In this document: positions 39,001 to 42,000 of the stretch, piece after piece
Position numbering within the stretch: position 1 is the first letter of the stretch
Layout: every line of letters begins with the position of its first letter
Source of the DNA: an uncultured Gemmatimonadales bacterium
GTDB taxonomy: Bacteria > Gemmatimonadota > Gemmatimonadetes > Gemmatimonadales > Gemmatimonadaceae
Length of the DNA: 64,000 nucleotides
Direction of reading: 5' to 3'
NCBI GenBank assembly: GCA_963850905.1
Contig: CAWKMU010000003.1
Location: 480,001-544,000 of the forward strand
Position numbers: made by a program

Positions 39001-42000
39001 GCGCGCGTTCGTCTCGCGTCCACTCGACAGCCTGACCGTGGGCGATATCGGCGCGACGGTAGAGCGCGGGCCAGTGTCGAGCGAGACGCCCGCGGCCGCC
39101 CGCAACGTTGTTGCGATCCTGCCGGGCAGCGACCCGAAGCTCAAGAACGAGTACGTCGCCCTCGGCGCGCACAACGATCATCTCGGGGTCACGTCGCCGG
39201 TCGATCACGATTCCATTCGGGCGTACAACCAGGCGCTGCACAAGCTCGGCGCGGTCGATCCGTTCACCCAGATCGACCAGGCCAAGATCGCCACCATCCA
39301 CATCAATGTGGATTCGCTGCACCGGCTGCATCCGGCGCGCCGCGACTCGATTGACAACGGCGCAGACGACGACGGATCCGGCACAGTCGCCCTGCTCGAG
39401 ATCGCCGAGAATCTCGCGACGGACAAGCACCGACCGAAGCGCTCGATCCTCTTCGTGTCCCACACGGCCGAGGAGCTCGGCCTGTTTGGATCTGAATACT
39501 TCACCGACCATCCGACGGTCCCACGAGATTCGATCGTCGCGCAGCTCAACATGGACATGATCGGTCGCGGCGACTCTGCGGACATCGTCGGCGGCGGACC
39601 ACGGTACTTGCAGTTGGTCGGATCGCGACGCCTCTCGACGGAGCTCGGCGACCTGGTCGAGTCGGTGAACAAATCGGAGGCCGAACCGTTCGTCTTCGAT
39701 TACCAATTCGATGCGAACGGGCATCCGGAGAACATCTATTGCCGGAGCGACCACTACGAGTACGCCCGCTACGGCATTCCAATCGTGTTCTTCACGACCG
39801 GCCAACATTCCGACTACCATCAGGTGACCGATGAGCCGGAATACATCGACTACGTTCACCTGGCGCATGTGGCGTCATTCGTGCGCGATGTCGCGGTGCA
39901 GCTCGCAGATCTCGACCACCGCCCGCTCGTGGACAAGCCGAAGCCCGATCCGCATGGAGTGTGTCGCCAGTAGTCAGCAGCGAGCGCGATCCCGGCCCTG
40001 GAGCTTCGCGGCCGCGGTCGCGCTCTGTATCGCCGCCCCCCTCTCGGCTCAGCAGCAGCCACCACCGGTAGGGTTCGGGCGAGCGGTTGGCCAGACGGCG
40101 GTCGGGGTGCTTGGCATGGGCGCCGGATTCGTCGGCACTGGATTGGCCGCCCGGTGGGCCGCCACGCACTGGTTTCACGCGTCCGAGGACGGGGCCTCTT
40201 CGGTCGCCCTCGGCGCCGCTTACGTCGGCGGCGCCCTTGGGGCGGCCGCCGGTCCTACTATTGTAGGGGCGGGTTCAGGCCCGCGCGGCACGTATTGGGG
40301 CGCGCTCGCCGGATCGGCCGCAGGCGGCGTCGGCAGCTTCCTCATTGTCCGCCTGAACCGGGCCGTGGACCTCGGTACCATCCCCCGGATTATCTCCACC
40401 GCAGCGGTGCTGACACTGCCCGCGATCGGGGCAACCGTCGGTTATAACCTGAGTAGGCACTGAAAAAGGCGGGGTCAGGGGTCAGGGCCCGGGGGTCAGG
40501 AAACAAATCGAACGGCCGATCACAGTGCGTCGCGACCGGCCTTGGACCAGTAGGGGCGACGCACTGCGTCGCCCGCCGTTGCCGTTGTCGTTCGCGTTGT
40601 CGTTCCCTGATCCCTGGCCCCTGACCCCGCCGTTCTAATTGCCGTTGCCGTTCCCCTGACCCCTGACCCCTGACCCCGCAGTTCAGTCCCCAACCCTGTG
40701 TTGCCCTGAGGCACAGAAGCGACTTAGCTTCCCCAACCTGCCCCTTGGTGTAACTGGCAACACGCCTGACTCTTGGAGGGTTTTCGGGACACCACGTCGG
40801 AAACGACGTGTGTGAATGCGCTCAAATTCGGCGAACGGTGTCACATCCCAACGCCGAGCCAAGCCGGGCCTGACCACCGGACCGGAAGGTGTAGAGACTC
40901 GACGGGCGCGACCTGACCACCGCGGGTGAAGGTCAAGACAGAGTCCGGGCCACGAACGCGCCGGCGGCGCGGCGGCGAAAGCCGAAGTGGTGGAGGGATC
41001 AGGAGAGTCCTGGTTCGAGCCCAGGAGGGGCAATGGCAGCGCGGTGGGTCGTCAGGCTTCGGCCATTCTATGAACGGAATCGACGGCCGGCCCCGGCACA
41101 TCGGGGCTGGTCGTTTTATTGGCCCCTGACGCCCCGTGCCATCGGCATCGTGCTCGGGCTAGGGCTCGGCGGAAGCGCGTGCAAGGACACGCCAGCCGCC
41201 TTTGGGTCGTCGCGCGCGGTGGCCCGGACGCATGCGGACGACCTGTTCACGAGTCTTCACCGCCGCTTCACCAACGTCGATCGCAGCCCGGAAGCAGCCG
41301 GCACTCTCGCCCGCATCGACCGGGCGGTGTTCACACCCTCGCAGGTGTTCGACGACTCGGTGCTCTGGAATGTCCTGCGGAGCGACAGCGTGCGCGTGAT
41401 GATGCTCACGGGACACGTCGCGCACGATCGGTATGTCGTCGCACAGGTGAACGAGACAGCAGCACCGCGCGAGCTCGCGGCTTCGCGCGATGAGATTCGC
41501 CTGGCACGCGTGGGACACGACCAGTATGAGTGGTCGACTTTTGTCGACCAGGTACTGGGTGCGGTGATGCCGGAGGATGTCGGCCGGATCGTGAGCTCCA
41601 TGCTCGCCGCTCCGGCCGCAACGGAGGAGACCGCGCTACACGCAGTGACGGCCGCGGCGTTCCCCAGGTCGAGCGAGGTGTTGGCGAAGGTGTTCTCCGT
41701 TGATAGCCTGCAGCGCACGCCGAGCGACGACGGCACGACCCTCGTCAACCTCGTAGTCGGCCTACATCCCGACGGGCTGCAGGCCGAATATCCCGCGTTT
41801 GCGACCTATTTGCGGACGTATCTCAATCCGGTGCGCTTGCGGTCTGTCGTTCGCGATGCGGCCGGCGGAGAGTGGTTCGATCTCGACCTCGGCGCGAATC
41901 GGCTCAGGATGCGCTTTCGCAGTGATCGTGATGGCCGCCTCGCGCCCATCGAGGGCCCACCACGGGCGATGCCCGACTCCCTCATGTTGGTCTCGGACTT

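What a model noticed while it worked through the whole genome (the two positions that open the first line are those of the whole stretch)
40739..41033. Group I introns in the only tRNA-Lys(UUU) and tRNA-Gln(CUG) genes
Two tRNA genes that the standard scan missed or misnamed are split in the anticodon loop by related group I introns. C3:2004271-2004575 is tRNA-Lys(UUU): a 34-nt 5' exon, a 232-nt intron (C3:2004305-2004536) after U34 and a 39-nt 3' exon; spliced, it gives the loop CUUUUAA. C3:520739-521033 is tRNA-Gln(CUG): a 222-nt intron (C3:520774-520995) after U35; spliced, it gives the loop CUCUGGA and the same acceptor stem, G37 and A38 as the genome's intron-less tRNA-Gln(UUG). No other credible gene for either anticodon is in the assembly. 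Reading AAA, and reading CAG with a cognate tRNA, therefore depends on self-splicing. Called gene g01874 and the first base of g00567 overlap these RNAs; g01874 i [...]
Evidence so far: - rna.tsv has no tRNA-Lys(UUU). Its 89-nt tRNA-Gln(ctg) at C3:1716143 has 74% G+C and no Rfam support. - ARAGORN with introns allowed finds both split genes. - Rfam RF00028 matches the whole model inside both: 34.9 bits, E 8.5e-7; 24.9 bits, E 8e-4. - The two introns are 79% identical over about 200 nt and are the only two copies in the genome. - P1 helices CUU|CGA with UUGGAG and UCU|UGG with UCGGGA put a U-G wobble at the exon end; each intron ends in G. - Gln gene in relatives: in 18 of 30, bases 1-35 and 258-295 of the gene match at 92-100% and lie directly side by side, so exactly the 222 nt between them are the insert. 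- The interrupted Gln form is in 3 of 9 other genomes of the genus [...]
(Added by a program. Inside this text positions count along the whole contig: contig position 480,001 is position 1 of the stretch shown here. "Call 12" and the like, gene names such as g00115 and contig names such as C1 are that model's own, and its searches are not shown. The text may have been shortened before it was handed on; [...] marks where a part breaks off. The agent that wrote the report below was given it as the finding of a first reader that could run no searches.)

Follow-up and report, generated by a model that had tools for sequence, protein, structure and literature searches.

The report
Self-splicing intron splits glutamine tRNA gene
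A soil bacterium's only gene for the tRNA that reads the main glutamine codon is interrupted in its anticodon by a small self-splicing-type RNA intron, a well-known kind of element sitting in an unusual host tRNA.

Summary
Confirmed. Window 40739-41033 (+) is a tRNA-Gln(CUG) gene. It has a 35-nt 5' exon, a 222-nt ORF-less group I intron (40774-40995) between U35 and G36, and a 38-nt 3' exon. In 26 of 40 relatives the two exons abut directly, and the joined exons are identical to their intron-less tRNA-Gln(CUG). P1 puts a U.G wobble at U35 and the intron ends in G. A P1-P9 fold is 97.5% paired in 10 homologues and 93.4% paired, with 40 of 50 pairs covarying, across 92 model-aligned matches. The intron belongs to the family found in bacterial tRNA-Leu(UAA), Ile/Met(CAU) and Arg(CCU) genes. 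A sister intron (about 80% identical) splits tRNA-Lys(UUU) after U34 elsewhere in the genome. These are the only two copies, and no credible intron-less gene for either anticodon is assembled. Intron and exons are far better conserved than the flanks, so splicing is inferred. It is not shown: RNA-library contigs hold only the unspliced form. This is a new member of a known kind. Earlier notes of this scan report tRNA-Lys(UUU) and phage tRNA-Gln(UUG) introns on other DNA. I could not check whether a 2020 catalogue lists either host.

The parts
40739..40773 (+). 5' exon of tRNA-Gln(CUG): acceptor 5' strand, D arm, anticodon-stem 5' strand, loop C32 U33 C34 U35
   Evidence: 100% identical to bases 1-35 of intron-less tRNA-Gln(ctg) genes of relatives.
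40774..40995 (+). 222-nt ORF-less group I intron (IC3-like), from the first base after U35 to the terminal G
   Evidence: RF00028 34.9 bits. Own model R1 254.9 bits. It is exactly the insert relative to 26 of 40 relatives. Overlapping ORFs have no Pfam family.
40996..41033 (+). 3' exon: G36 G37 A38, anticodon-stem 3' strand, variable loop, T arm, acceptor 3' strand, A73; no encoded CCA
   Evidence: 100% identical to bases 36-73 of intron-less relatives.
40771..40789 (+). P1 hairpin: exon UCU plus intron UGG (40771-40776) pairs with guide UCGGGA (40784-40789); reactive U.G is U40773 with G40787
   Evidence: Seen in the sequence and in the MFE of the local segment. In G012 the intron part covaries (UCU|AGC with GCUGGA) and leaves a single U.G at U35.
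40790..40814 (+). P2 hairpin with GAAA loop (L2)
   Evidence: 10 pairs, 5 of them with changes on both sides among 10 sequences. All 10 covary in the 92-match alignment.
40817..40823 (+). P3 5' strand, followed by J3/4 AAA
   Evidence: Pairs with 40904-40910. 92.9% of cells paired in A2. 7 of 7 pairs covary in A3.
40828..40857 (+). P4-P5 domain (P4 UCGGCG/CGCCGA, J4/5 AA, short P5)
   Evidence: P4 is 100% and 98.5% paired.
40858..40890 (+). P6 and variable P6a hairpin
   Evidence: P6 is invariant and P6a covaries.
40894..40899 (+). P7 5' strand GAGACU with bulged A40895 (presumed guanosine-binding helix)
   Evidence: Pairs with 40942-40946. 100% paired but invariant in 10 sequences. Matches the Rfam consensus AGACU...AGUC.
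40904..40910 (+). P3 3' strand
40912..40932 (+). P8 hairpin
   Evidence: 90% of cells paired in A2; 75-81% in A3.
40942..40946 (+). P7 3' strand AGUCC, preceded by J8/7
40950..40990 (+). P9 three-way domain: P9 CCAC/GUGG, variable P9a, P9b CGGC-GAAA-GCCG
   Evidence: All pairs form in A2. 95-99.7% paired with covariation in A3.
40995..40995 (+). Terminal G (omega G) before the 3' splice site
   Evidence: All 10 aligned introns end in G.
41093..41120 (+). Terminator-like hairpin plus T-run 60 nt after the tRNA 3' end
   Evidence: 3 terminator-like sites found in the region against 1.1 expected in shuffles. This is a consensus match only.

Best explanation
The locus is a functional tRNA-Gln(CUG) gene interrupted between anticodon bases U35 and G36 by a 222-nt ORF-less group I intron. 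The intron belongs to the family that lives in bacterial tRNA anticodon loops.

Proposed mechanism:
1. The precursor is transcribed as one RNA.
2. The intron folds into P1-P9, and its guide GGA pairs with exon UCU to give a U.G wobble at U35.
3. An external guanosine cleaves after U35.
4. The terminal G40995 then takes the guanosine site, and the freed exon end attacks after it.
5. This joins CUCU to GGA and restores the 7-nt loop CUCUGGA.

The product is identical to the intron-less tRNA-Gln(CUG) of relatives. A sister intron does the same for tRNA-Lys(UUU) after U34 at C3:2004271-2004575.

Shown: the anatomy, the junctions, the fold with covariation, family membership and conservation. Inferred: that splicing happens, that it needs no protein, and that the cell depends on it for AAA and for cognate reading of CAG.
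For: Junction. The exon halves abut in 26 of 40 relatives. The bases either side of each junction differ, so the 222-nt insert can be placed only one way. ARAGORN calls the intron-less form tRNA-Gln(ctg) in 12 of 13 Gln loci tested; L007 gave none. Two of them score 61.9 bits on RF00005.

tRNA identity. The joined exons are closest to the genome's own tRNA-Gln(UUG): 75% identity, with the same acceptor stem, G37, A38 and A73.

Intron fold. U-1 with a U.G wobble and a terminal G are present in all 10 introns. In A2, 55 pairs are 97.5% paired and 10 pairs change on both sides. Slid controls reach 32-40%, and 0 of 500 shuffles reach the observed values. In A3 (92 matches) 93.4% are paired and 40 of 50 pairs covary.

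Family. Model R1 hits 79 of 82 loci from other genomes and 68 real matches in 80 motif-scan loci. ARAGORN finds these introns in tRNA-Leu(taa), Met/Ile(cat), Arg(cct) and others.

Selection. Against G004, G001 and G002, the gene is 99, 97 and 94% identical, while its flanks are 93, 84 and 72-70% identical. Anticodon-stem pairs change compensatorily across the intron: C27-G43 becomes U-A in G012 Gln, and G27-C43 becomes A-U in G003 Lys.

Sole copies. G001, G002, G004 and G012 show no separate intron-less Gln exons. G001-G004 show no intron-less Lys(UUU). The 45 other credible tRNA genes cover every other expected anticodon.

Codon demand. CAG is 78.5% of Gln codons and AAA 18.4% of Lys codons in 1182 long ORFs.
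Against: - No RNA evidence of splicing. In 4 of 4 metatranscriptome runs laid, contigs carry the unspliced form. The single exon-exon contig (run X6) has a foreign 5' flank, so it comes from an intron-less organism.
- RF00028 scores (34.9 and 24.9 bits) are below the 50-bit cut-off. However, tRNA-Leu(UAA) introns of Burkholderia (31.8 and 33.2 bits) and one tRNA-Arg(CCU) intron (26.5 bits) also fall below it.
- P1 of the window's intron has two adjacent U.G pairs. P1 alone would therefore also allow cleavage after U at 40774. That would give loop CUCUUGA, a Lys anticodon in a Gln body.
- P7 never varies, so it carries no covariation support.
- The MFE of the whole gene is unremarkable, with z = -1.27.
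- The assembly is 82% complete by markers.
Confidence: 0.88

Rival explanations
1. The intron is genuine but does not splice on its own in vivo. It needs a host protein or chaperone, or splices inefficiently, so that it throttles the supply of tRNA-Gln(CUG) and tRNA-Lys(UUU).
For: P5 is only 2 clear pairs in the window's intron, against an extended P5 in G012. P8 is the least well paired helix. Unspliced-form contigs were found in 4 of 4 RNA libraries laid. No splicing assay exists.
Against: All core helices and both GAAA loops are conserved. From memory, not from a call: small tRNA introns of this family (Anabaena, Azoarcus) self-splice in vitro. RNA-library contigs cannot measure splicing efficiency, and DNA may be present in those libraries.
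Confidence: 0.15
2. Intron-less copies of one or both tRNA genes lie in unassembled DNA, so the cell does not depend on splicing.
For: Completeness by markers is 82%. tRNA genes are often missing from draft assemblies.
Against: The other 45 credible tRNA genes make a complete set that lacks exactly these two anticodons. Four further genomes (G001, G002, G004, G012; 67-97% complete) also show only the split Gln gene. G001-G004 show only the split Lys gene. The genome is in 6 contigs.
Confidence: 0.07
3. The split genes are dead. The intron no longer splices, CAG is read by tRNA-Gln(UUG) through wobble, and the locus is decaying.
For: tRNA-Gln(UUG) is present and could read CAG by wobble; this is general knowledge, not a call. 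No splicing has been shown.
Against: Exons are 100% conserved, and the intron is better conserved than the flanking DNA across species whose flanks have diverged to about 72%. Compensatory exon and intron changes are present. No other tRNA in the assembly can read AAA, yet 2227 AAA codons occur in 1182 long ORFs.
Confidence: 0.04
4. ARAGORN's reading is right: the window gene is tRNA-Lys(CUU) with an intron after position 37.
For: ARAGORN with introns allowed prints this. The tandem U.G in P1 allows a 1-nt shifted cut.
Against: ARAGORN's 5' junction follows a G, not a U. The body, acceptor stem and discriminator are those of tRNA-Gln. Intron-less relatives read CUCUGGA. G012 and G417 have an A-U pair in place of the second U.G.
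Confidence: 0.01

Closest known systems
Group I introns (subgroup IC3) in bacterial tRNA anticodon loops: tRNA-Leu(UAA), tRNA-fMet, tRNA-Ile(CAU) and tRNA-Arg(CCU), the 'four classical varieties' Leu.3Ug, fMet.2Ug, Ile2.5Ug and Arg.5Ug (Williams 2020, bioRxiv 10.1101/2020.01.27.920355; main text read)
   Same: - It sits in the anticodon loop, is ORF-less and about 220 nt long.
- It has U-1 with a U.G wobble in P1 and a terminal G.
- The core sequences and helices are shared. My model built from the Gemmatimonadales introns scores 50-152 bits on introns in Leu(taa), Met/Ile(cat) and Arg(cct) genes of other phyla.
- The interrupted gene is the sole gene for its anticodon.
   Different: The host is tRNA-Gln(CUG) and the site lies between 35 and 36, which would be 'Gln.4Ug' in Williams' notation. 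That is not one of the four classical settings. The window's P1 has a tandem U.G.
The 17 further tRNA settings reported by Williams 2020, including, according to earlier notes of this scan, 'Lys.3Ug'
   Same: The second intron of this genome (tRNA-Lys(UUU), CUU|UUAA) has exactly the Lys.3Ug geometry. I also found that geometry in a Pseudomonadota record (L226) and a Gemmatimonadaceae record (L222).
   Different: I could not see the list. Table 1 and Fig. 3 are images, and the text holds neither 'Lys.3' nor 'Gln.'. Whether Gln is listed is therefore unknown to me.
Group I introns in phage tRNA-Gln(UUG) genes at 35/36
   Same: The host is a glutamine tRNA and the site is the same inter-nucleotide position, 35/36.
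   Different: Those are phage genes with anticodon UUG, some with long introns. This is a chromosomal bacterial tRNA-Gln(CUG). I did not compare the sequences.

Membership tests
Group I intron | P1 helix pairs the 5' exon end with an internal guide and places a U.G wobble at the 5' splice site | tested here: met
   The pairing is UCU|UGG with UCGGGA. The MFE of the local segment forms P1 in 9 of 10 homologues. The intron half of P1 covaries in G012 and G003.
Group I intron | Terminal guanosine (omega G) before the 3' splice site | tested here: met
   G40995 in the window. 10 of 10 aligned introns end in G.
Group I intron | Conserved core helices P3-P8, including the P3/P7 pseudoknot, supported by covariation | tested here: met
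   A2: 97.5% paired and 10 pairs with double changes. A3: 93.4% paired and 40 of 50 pairs covary. A3 is fitted to the model and omits P7. P7 is 100% paired but invariant.
Group I intron | Score at or above Rfam RF00028 gathering cut-off (50 bits) | tested here: not met
   34.9 bits for the window and 24.9 bits for the Lys intron. Control: of 10 introns from other genomes that gave a hit, 4 reach 50 bits. Burkholderia Leu(UAA) introns score 31.8 and 33.2 bits. Williams' main text says none of the 12 Rfam seed sequences was bacterial.
Group I intron | Guanosine-dependent self-splicing | not testable with these tools
   This needs an in vitro or in vivo RNA assay. RNA-library contigs show only the unspliced form.
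Bacterial tRNA anticodon-loop introns (IC3 type) | Inserted in the anticodon loop so that removal restores a 7-nt loop and a normal cloverleaf | tested here: met
   Removal gives the loop CUCUGGA. The joined exons are identical to intron-less genes that score 61.9 bits on RF00005.
Bacterial tRNA anticodon-loop introns (IC3 type) | Sequence and structure homology to the introns of tRNA-Leu(UAA), Ile/Met(CAU) and Arg(CCU) | tested here: met
   R1 matches. The core motif pair scanned is shared with at least 120 public stretches.
Bacterial tRNA anticodon-loop introns (IC3 type) | GAAA tetraloops on L2 and L9 that dock into receptors in P8 and P5 (recalled from the Azoarcus structure) | tested here: inconclusive
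   Both GAAA loops are conserved in 10 of 10 sequences. The receptors were not identified, and P5 is very short in the window's intron.
Bacterial tRNA anticodon-loop introns (IC3 type) | Host is one of the four classical settings | tested here: not met
   The hosts are Gln(CUG) at 35/36 and Lys(UUU) at 34/35.
tRNA-Gln | Body shared with the genome's other tRNA-Gln and with the tRNA-Gln(CUG) of relatives | tested here: met
   Best within-genome match is tRNA-Gln(UUG) at 75%, with an identical acceptor stem U1-A72...U7-A66 and A73. It is identical to the relatives' tRNA-Gln(ctg).
tRNA-Gln | Charged with glutamine, directly or through Glu-tRNA-Gln amidation | not testable with these tools
   Context only. 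No GlnRS-type C-terminal domain was found and GatB is present. This suggests the indirect route, but the assembly is incomplete.

The most novel reading that the evidence does not exclude
This ORF-less intron changes hosts without a homing endonuclease, possibly in three ways.

1. It moved between the Gln (35/36) and Lys (34/35) anticodon loops within one genus, probably by reverse splicing, with its guide retuned from GGA to GAG.
2. The two copies still exchange segments by gene conversion. The G002 Lys intron is a mosaic.
3. Integrase-borne islands target the tRNA-Gln(CUG) gene, and their attachment repeats span the intron site. Such islands may carry intron-bearing 3' gene pieces between genomes, so they could both install and erase the intron.
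Probability: 0.3. Interest if true: 0.6.

Novelty: new member of a known kind. Interest (0 to 1): 0.4.

Why it matters
- **Annotation.** Standard tRNA finders miss both genes, so the genome appears unable to read AAA and to lack the cognate tRNA for its main glutamine codon. With introns allowed, ARAGORN names them wrongly. The same error will affect other Gemmatimonadales genomes.
- **Biology.** It adds a glutamine tRNA, and a second lysine example in this phylum, to the hosts of the bacterial tRNA intron family.
- **Intron mobility.** It offers a natural pair of closely related introns at two different loop positions in one genome, with retuned guide sequences. That pair is useful for studying how endonuclease-less introns change targets.
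- **What is not new.** A cell depending on a ribozyme for an essential tRNA is already known from tRNA-Leu(UAA) and tRNA-Ile(CAU) hosts.

Tried and rejected
- **RNA evidence.** I laid four soil metatranscriptome runs, all held as contigs. No contig with this genome's flanks shows the spliced junction. The one 40773|40996 joint, in run X6, has a different 5' flank, so it is an intron-less gene of another organism. I laid no DNA run beside them.
- **Whole-gene folding.** The z-score of -1.27 is uninformative.
- **Alternative Gln(CUG) candidates.** C3:1716143 and C3:1263721 were rejected.
- **L215 (Acidisoma).** ARAGORN called it 'tRNA-Gln(ctg)', but by its exons it is a tRNA-Arg(CCU) setting.
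- **Two independent invasions of the Gln site.** The best tree puts the nine genus-g1 introns (4 Gln, 5 Lys) in one clade at SH-aLRT 95, away from the G012 and G417 Gln introns. The AU test does not reject a single Gln clade, p = 0.37. This stays undecided.
- **P10 and P9.0 pairings.** I found no convincing conserved pairing by eye.
- **Literature.** Seven full-text searches found no paper describing a group I intron in a bacterial tRNA-Gln gene, or one in Gemmatimonadota. This covers only the library searched.
- **Homing endonuclease or integrase next to the window gene.** None was found.
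Full report
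**Observation**

The window sequence at 40739-41033 reads as three parts:
- a 35-nt tRNA 5' half ending CCUGA-CUCU;
- 222 nt of insert;
- a 38-nt 3' half beginning GGA-UCAGG.

Standard ARAGORN finds only tRNA-Ala(CGC) in the window. In the whole genome it makes 47 calls, with no Lys(UUU). With introns allowed it finds both split genes, but names the window gene Lys(ctt) and the second one Asn(gtt). It does this by placing the intron 1-2 nt off. That run makes 26 intron-bearing calls in all. Only these two coincide with an intron-model hit.

Rfam RF00028 matches 40758-40960 over its whole model at 34.9 bits, E 1.6e-6, against a cut-off of 50. The Lys intron scores 24.9 bits.

**Exact junctions**

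I searched 40 relatives with the 295-nt gene. In 26 of them, query positions 1-35 and 258-295 lie directly side by side at 91-100% identity. The bases on either side of each junction differ, so the insert can only be 40774-40995.

The interrupted form is present in:
- G001, G002 and G004, which is 3 of the 9 other genomes of the genus, at 94-99% identity;
- G012 of another genus, at 74% identity with a 238-nt intron.

ARAGORN calls the intron-less genes tRNA-Gln(ctg) in 12 of the 13 Gln loci tested; L007 gave none. In 8 of those 12 the sequence is identical to the window's joined exons. Two of them score 61.9 bits on Rfam's tRNA model.

Within the genome, the joined exons are closest to tRNA-Gln(UUG). 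They are 75% identical and share the acceptor stem, G37, A38 and A73.

For the Lys gene, positions up to 34 and from 267 abut in 9 of 40 relatives. One of the nine is the unpublished G016. ARAGORN calls those genes tRNA-Lys(ttt) in G007, G008, G009 and G030.

**It is a group I intron**

I derived a P1-P9 structure for the window's intron. It has the following features:
- P1 is UCU|UGG paired with UCGGGA.
- P2 and P9b carry GAAA loops.
- J3/4 is AAA and J4/5 is AA.
- P7 is GAGACU/AGUCC with a bulged A.
- The last base is G.

| Alignment | Sequences | Pairs counted | Paired | Pairs changed on both sides | Slid controls |
|---|---|---|---|---|---|
| A2 | 10 Gemmatimonadales introns | 55 | 97.5% | 10 | 32-40% |
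| A3 | 92 model-aligned matches | 50 | 93.4% | 40 | 32-50% |

For A2, 0 of 500 shuffles reached the observed values. Two caveats apply. The A2 structure was derived from one of its own sequences. A3 is fitted to the model and omits P7, and P7 itself never varies.

P1 covaries. G012 has UCU|AGC with GCUGGA, and G003 (Lys) has CUU|CGUG with CCAUGGAG. In each case the U.G sits at the third pair. This settles the choice between the two adjacent U.G pairs in the window's own P1.

Model R1 finds exactly two copies in the genome, at 254.9 and 242.2 bits.

**Family**

Two scans of public genome contigs used motifs from the intron. Both stopped at their limit of 120 stretches, and DNA was held for 80 loci each.
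- R1 matched 76 of the 78 first-scan loci I gave it, leaving out the two copies of a relative's own genes.
- R1 gave real matches in 68 of the 80 second-scan loci.

By ARAGORN's uncurated names, the hosts are mostly Leu(taa), Met/Ile(cat) and Arg(cct). There are scattered Ser, Glu(ttc), Phe, Thr, Leu(caa) and Lys(ttt) hosts. L226, a Pseudomonadota record, and L222, a Gemmatimonadaceae record, are tRNA-Lys(UUU) genes split after U34. L215, called 'Gln', is really an Arg(CCU) setting.

Outside the Gemmatimonadales records, no Gln host appeared in these samples.

As a control for the low Rfam score, introns in classical hosts scored 26.5-58.5 bits on RF00028. The two Burkholderia Leu(UAA) introns scored 31.8 and 33.2 bits. 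The taxon, order Gemmatimonadales, comes from the titles of the public records hit.

**Function and dependence (inferred)**

Across G004, G001 and G002, the gene is much better conserved than its flanks:

| Genome | Gene identity | Flank identity |
|---|---|---|
| G004 | 99% | 93% |
| G001 | 97% | 84% |
| G002 | 94% | 72-70% |

Anticodon-stem pairs change on both sides across the intron in G012 (Gln) and G003 (Lys). Both points indicate selection on a working split gene.

Evidence that these are the only copies:
- Rfam's tRNA model supports 44 genes in the genome, none of them Gln(CUG) or Lys(UUU).
- The two other ARAGORN 'Gln(ctg)' calls have no Rfam hit at E<=10 and poor cloverleaves.
- The remaining set covers every other expected anticodon.
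- G001, G002, G004 and G012 likewise show only the split Gln gene.
- G001-G004 show only the split Lys gene.

In 1182 long ORFs, chosen by a crude GC3 filter, CAG is 78.5% of Gln codons and AAA is 18.4% of Lys codons, 2227 codons in all. No GlnRS-type C-terminal domain was found, and GatB is present. This fits the indirect charging route, although the assembly is incomplete.

**RNA data**

Four soil metatranscriptome runs from four studies each hold a contig of the unspliced gene:
- X7 record 7 spans 40720-41049 and bridges both junctions.
- X9 record 14 spans 40755-41032.
- X6 record 5 spans 40755-41025, and X10 record 1 spans 40756-41025.

The identity is 95-99%. These are contigs from RNA libraries that may contain DNA, so they do not prove transcription. 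They say nothing about splicing.

**Distribution and history**

- BLAST with the intron over 400 other genomes of the phylum gave full-length matches only in G003 and G004. It gave partial matches in G086, G165 and G189.
- R1 over 150 other genomes of the order found only the G086 fragment. That search used strict filters and scored few candidates per genome.
- With the P1 columns removed, the four Gln and five Lys introns of the genus form one clade at SH-aLRT 95.
- They are 78-84% identical to each other. They are 69-74% identical to G012's Gln intron.
- A single clade of all Gln-site introns is not rejected, AU p = 0.37.

Transfer between the two tRNA sites, with a retuned guide, is therefore the simplest reading. 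Concerted evolution of the two copies could mimic it.

**Surroundings**

The neighbouring ORFs match ordinary housekeeping-type families: GGDEF/EAL, MsrA, M28 peptidase and a metallo-beta-lactamase fold. There is no integrase and no endonuclease. A terminator-like hairpin lies 60 nt after the tRNA.

**Literature**

Williams 2020 (main text read) reports 21 tRNA settings, 4 of them classical. Hausner et al. 2014 (passages) and the tRNAscan-SE 2.0 paper (passages) name no Gln or Lys host.

Earlier notes of this scan say Lys.3Ug is in Williams' list and that a glutamine host looks uncatalogued. I could not verify either statement.

**Claims that rest on unpublished genomes**

- G016 supplies one of the nine abutting Lys examples.
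- G086 supplies one of the two intron-fragment loci in the island side story, and the only hit.

Noticed in passing
G189:C2:282117-320608 (L148, L284); G086:C11:17537-17731 (L149, unpublished genome): tRNA-Gln(CUG) is an island target. In G189 an intact intron-less gene is followed at once by a tyrosine-integrase gene (282340-282789). Same-strand 3' fragments of the tRNA follow about 12, 15, 20 and 38 kb further on. The 302-kb fragment is preceded by the 3' half (P8-P9 to the terminal G) of a group I intron of the G012/G417 type. G086 has a like fragment. So pieces of intron-bearing alleles sit in genomes whose working gene is intron-less.
   Followed up: partly
G417:C9:396774-397521 (L027, L283): The order here is tRNA-Ala(CGC), an intact intron-less tRNA-Gln(CUG) and a terminator. 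About 400 nt later comes 'GGACUCU' plus a complete 237-nt intron (R1 190.5 bits), a full 3' exon and a different terminator, but with no proper 5' tRNA half. It looks like the displaced 3' part of a formerly intron-bearing gene, or an attachment-site remnant.
   Followed up: partly
L022 (G002:C3:1050733-1051024) compared with L004: The G002 tRNA-Lys intron is a mosaic. Its P1-P2 end resembles other Lys introns (91%). Its P8-P9 part is 90-97% identical to the Gln intron of the same genome, against 70-90% to other Lys introns. This suggests gene conversion between the two introns of one genome.
   Followed up: partly
G009:C30:167014-169468 (L007): This same-genus genome (98% complete) shows only two 3' fragments of tRNA-Gln(CUG), starting in the anticodon stem. 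The 5' half was not found by BLAST or ARAGORN.
   Followed up: partly
window 40471-40500 and 40575-40677: Short tandem arrays lie just upstream of the tRNA gene: GGGGTCA x4.3, then GCCGTT x5, CCCTGAC x3.4 and CCCCTGA x3.6. The first heptamer is the reverse complement of the later ones. The arrays flank a terminator-like hairpin on the minus strand (40541-40514).
   Followed up: no
window 41033-42454 (+): This called ORF starts on the tRNA's discriminator base and runs through the terminator-like hairpin at 41093-41120, so its real start is probably further downstream. Residues 37-50 (IGIVLGLGLGGSAC) look like a lipoprotein signal; that is my reading, not a tool result. It has no Pfam family.
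   Followed up: no
L037, L098, L203 (Verrucomicrobiota); L195, L197 (Opitutia/Opitutus); L164, L175; L234; L165, L176, L242: The same intron family sits in other non-classical hosts. By ARAGORN's uncurated names these are Ser(tga), Glu(ttc), Phe(gaa), Thr(tgt) and Leu(caa).
   Followed up: no
G000:C3:1716143-1716231, C3:630924-630991, C3:1263721-1264026: Three ARAGORN tRNA calls have no Rfam support and should not be annotated as tRNAs: the 89-nt Gln(ctg), the 68-nt Arg(gcg), and a 'Gln(ctg)' with an intron.
   Followed up: yes
window 43962-44891 (+): A metallo-beta-lactamase-fold ORF gives a faint match to the tRNase Z N-terminal domain, below that family's cut-off. It lies near two tRNA genes, and the tRNA-Gln gene (the only one checked) lacks an encoded CCA.
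   Followed up: no
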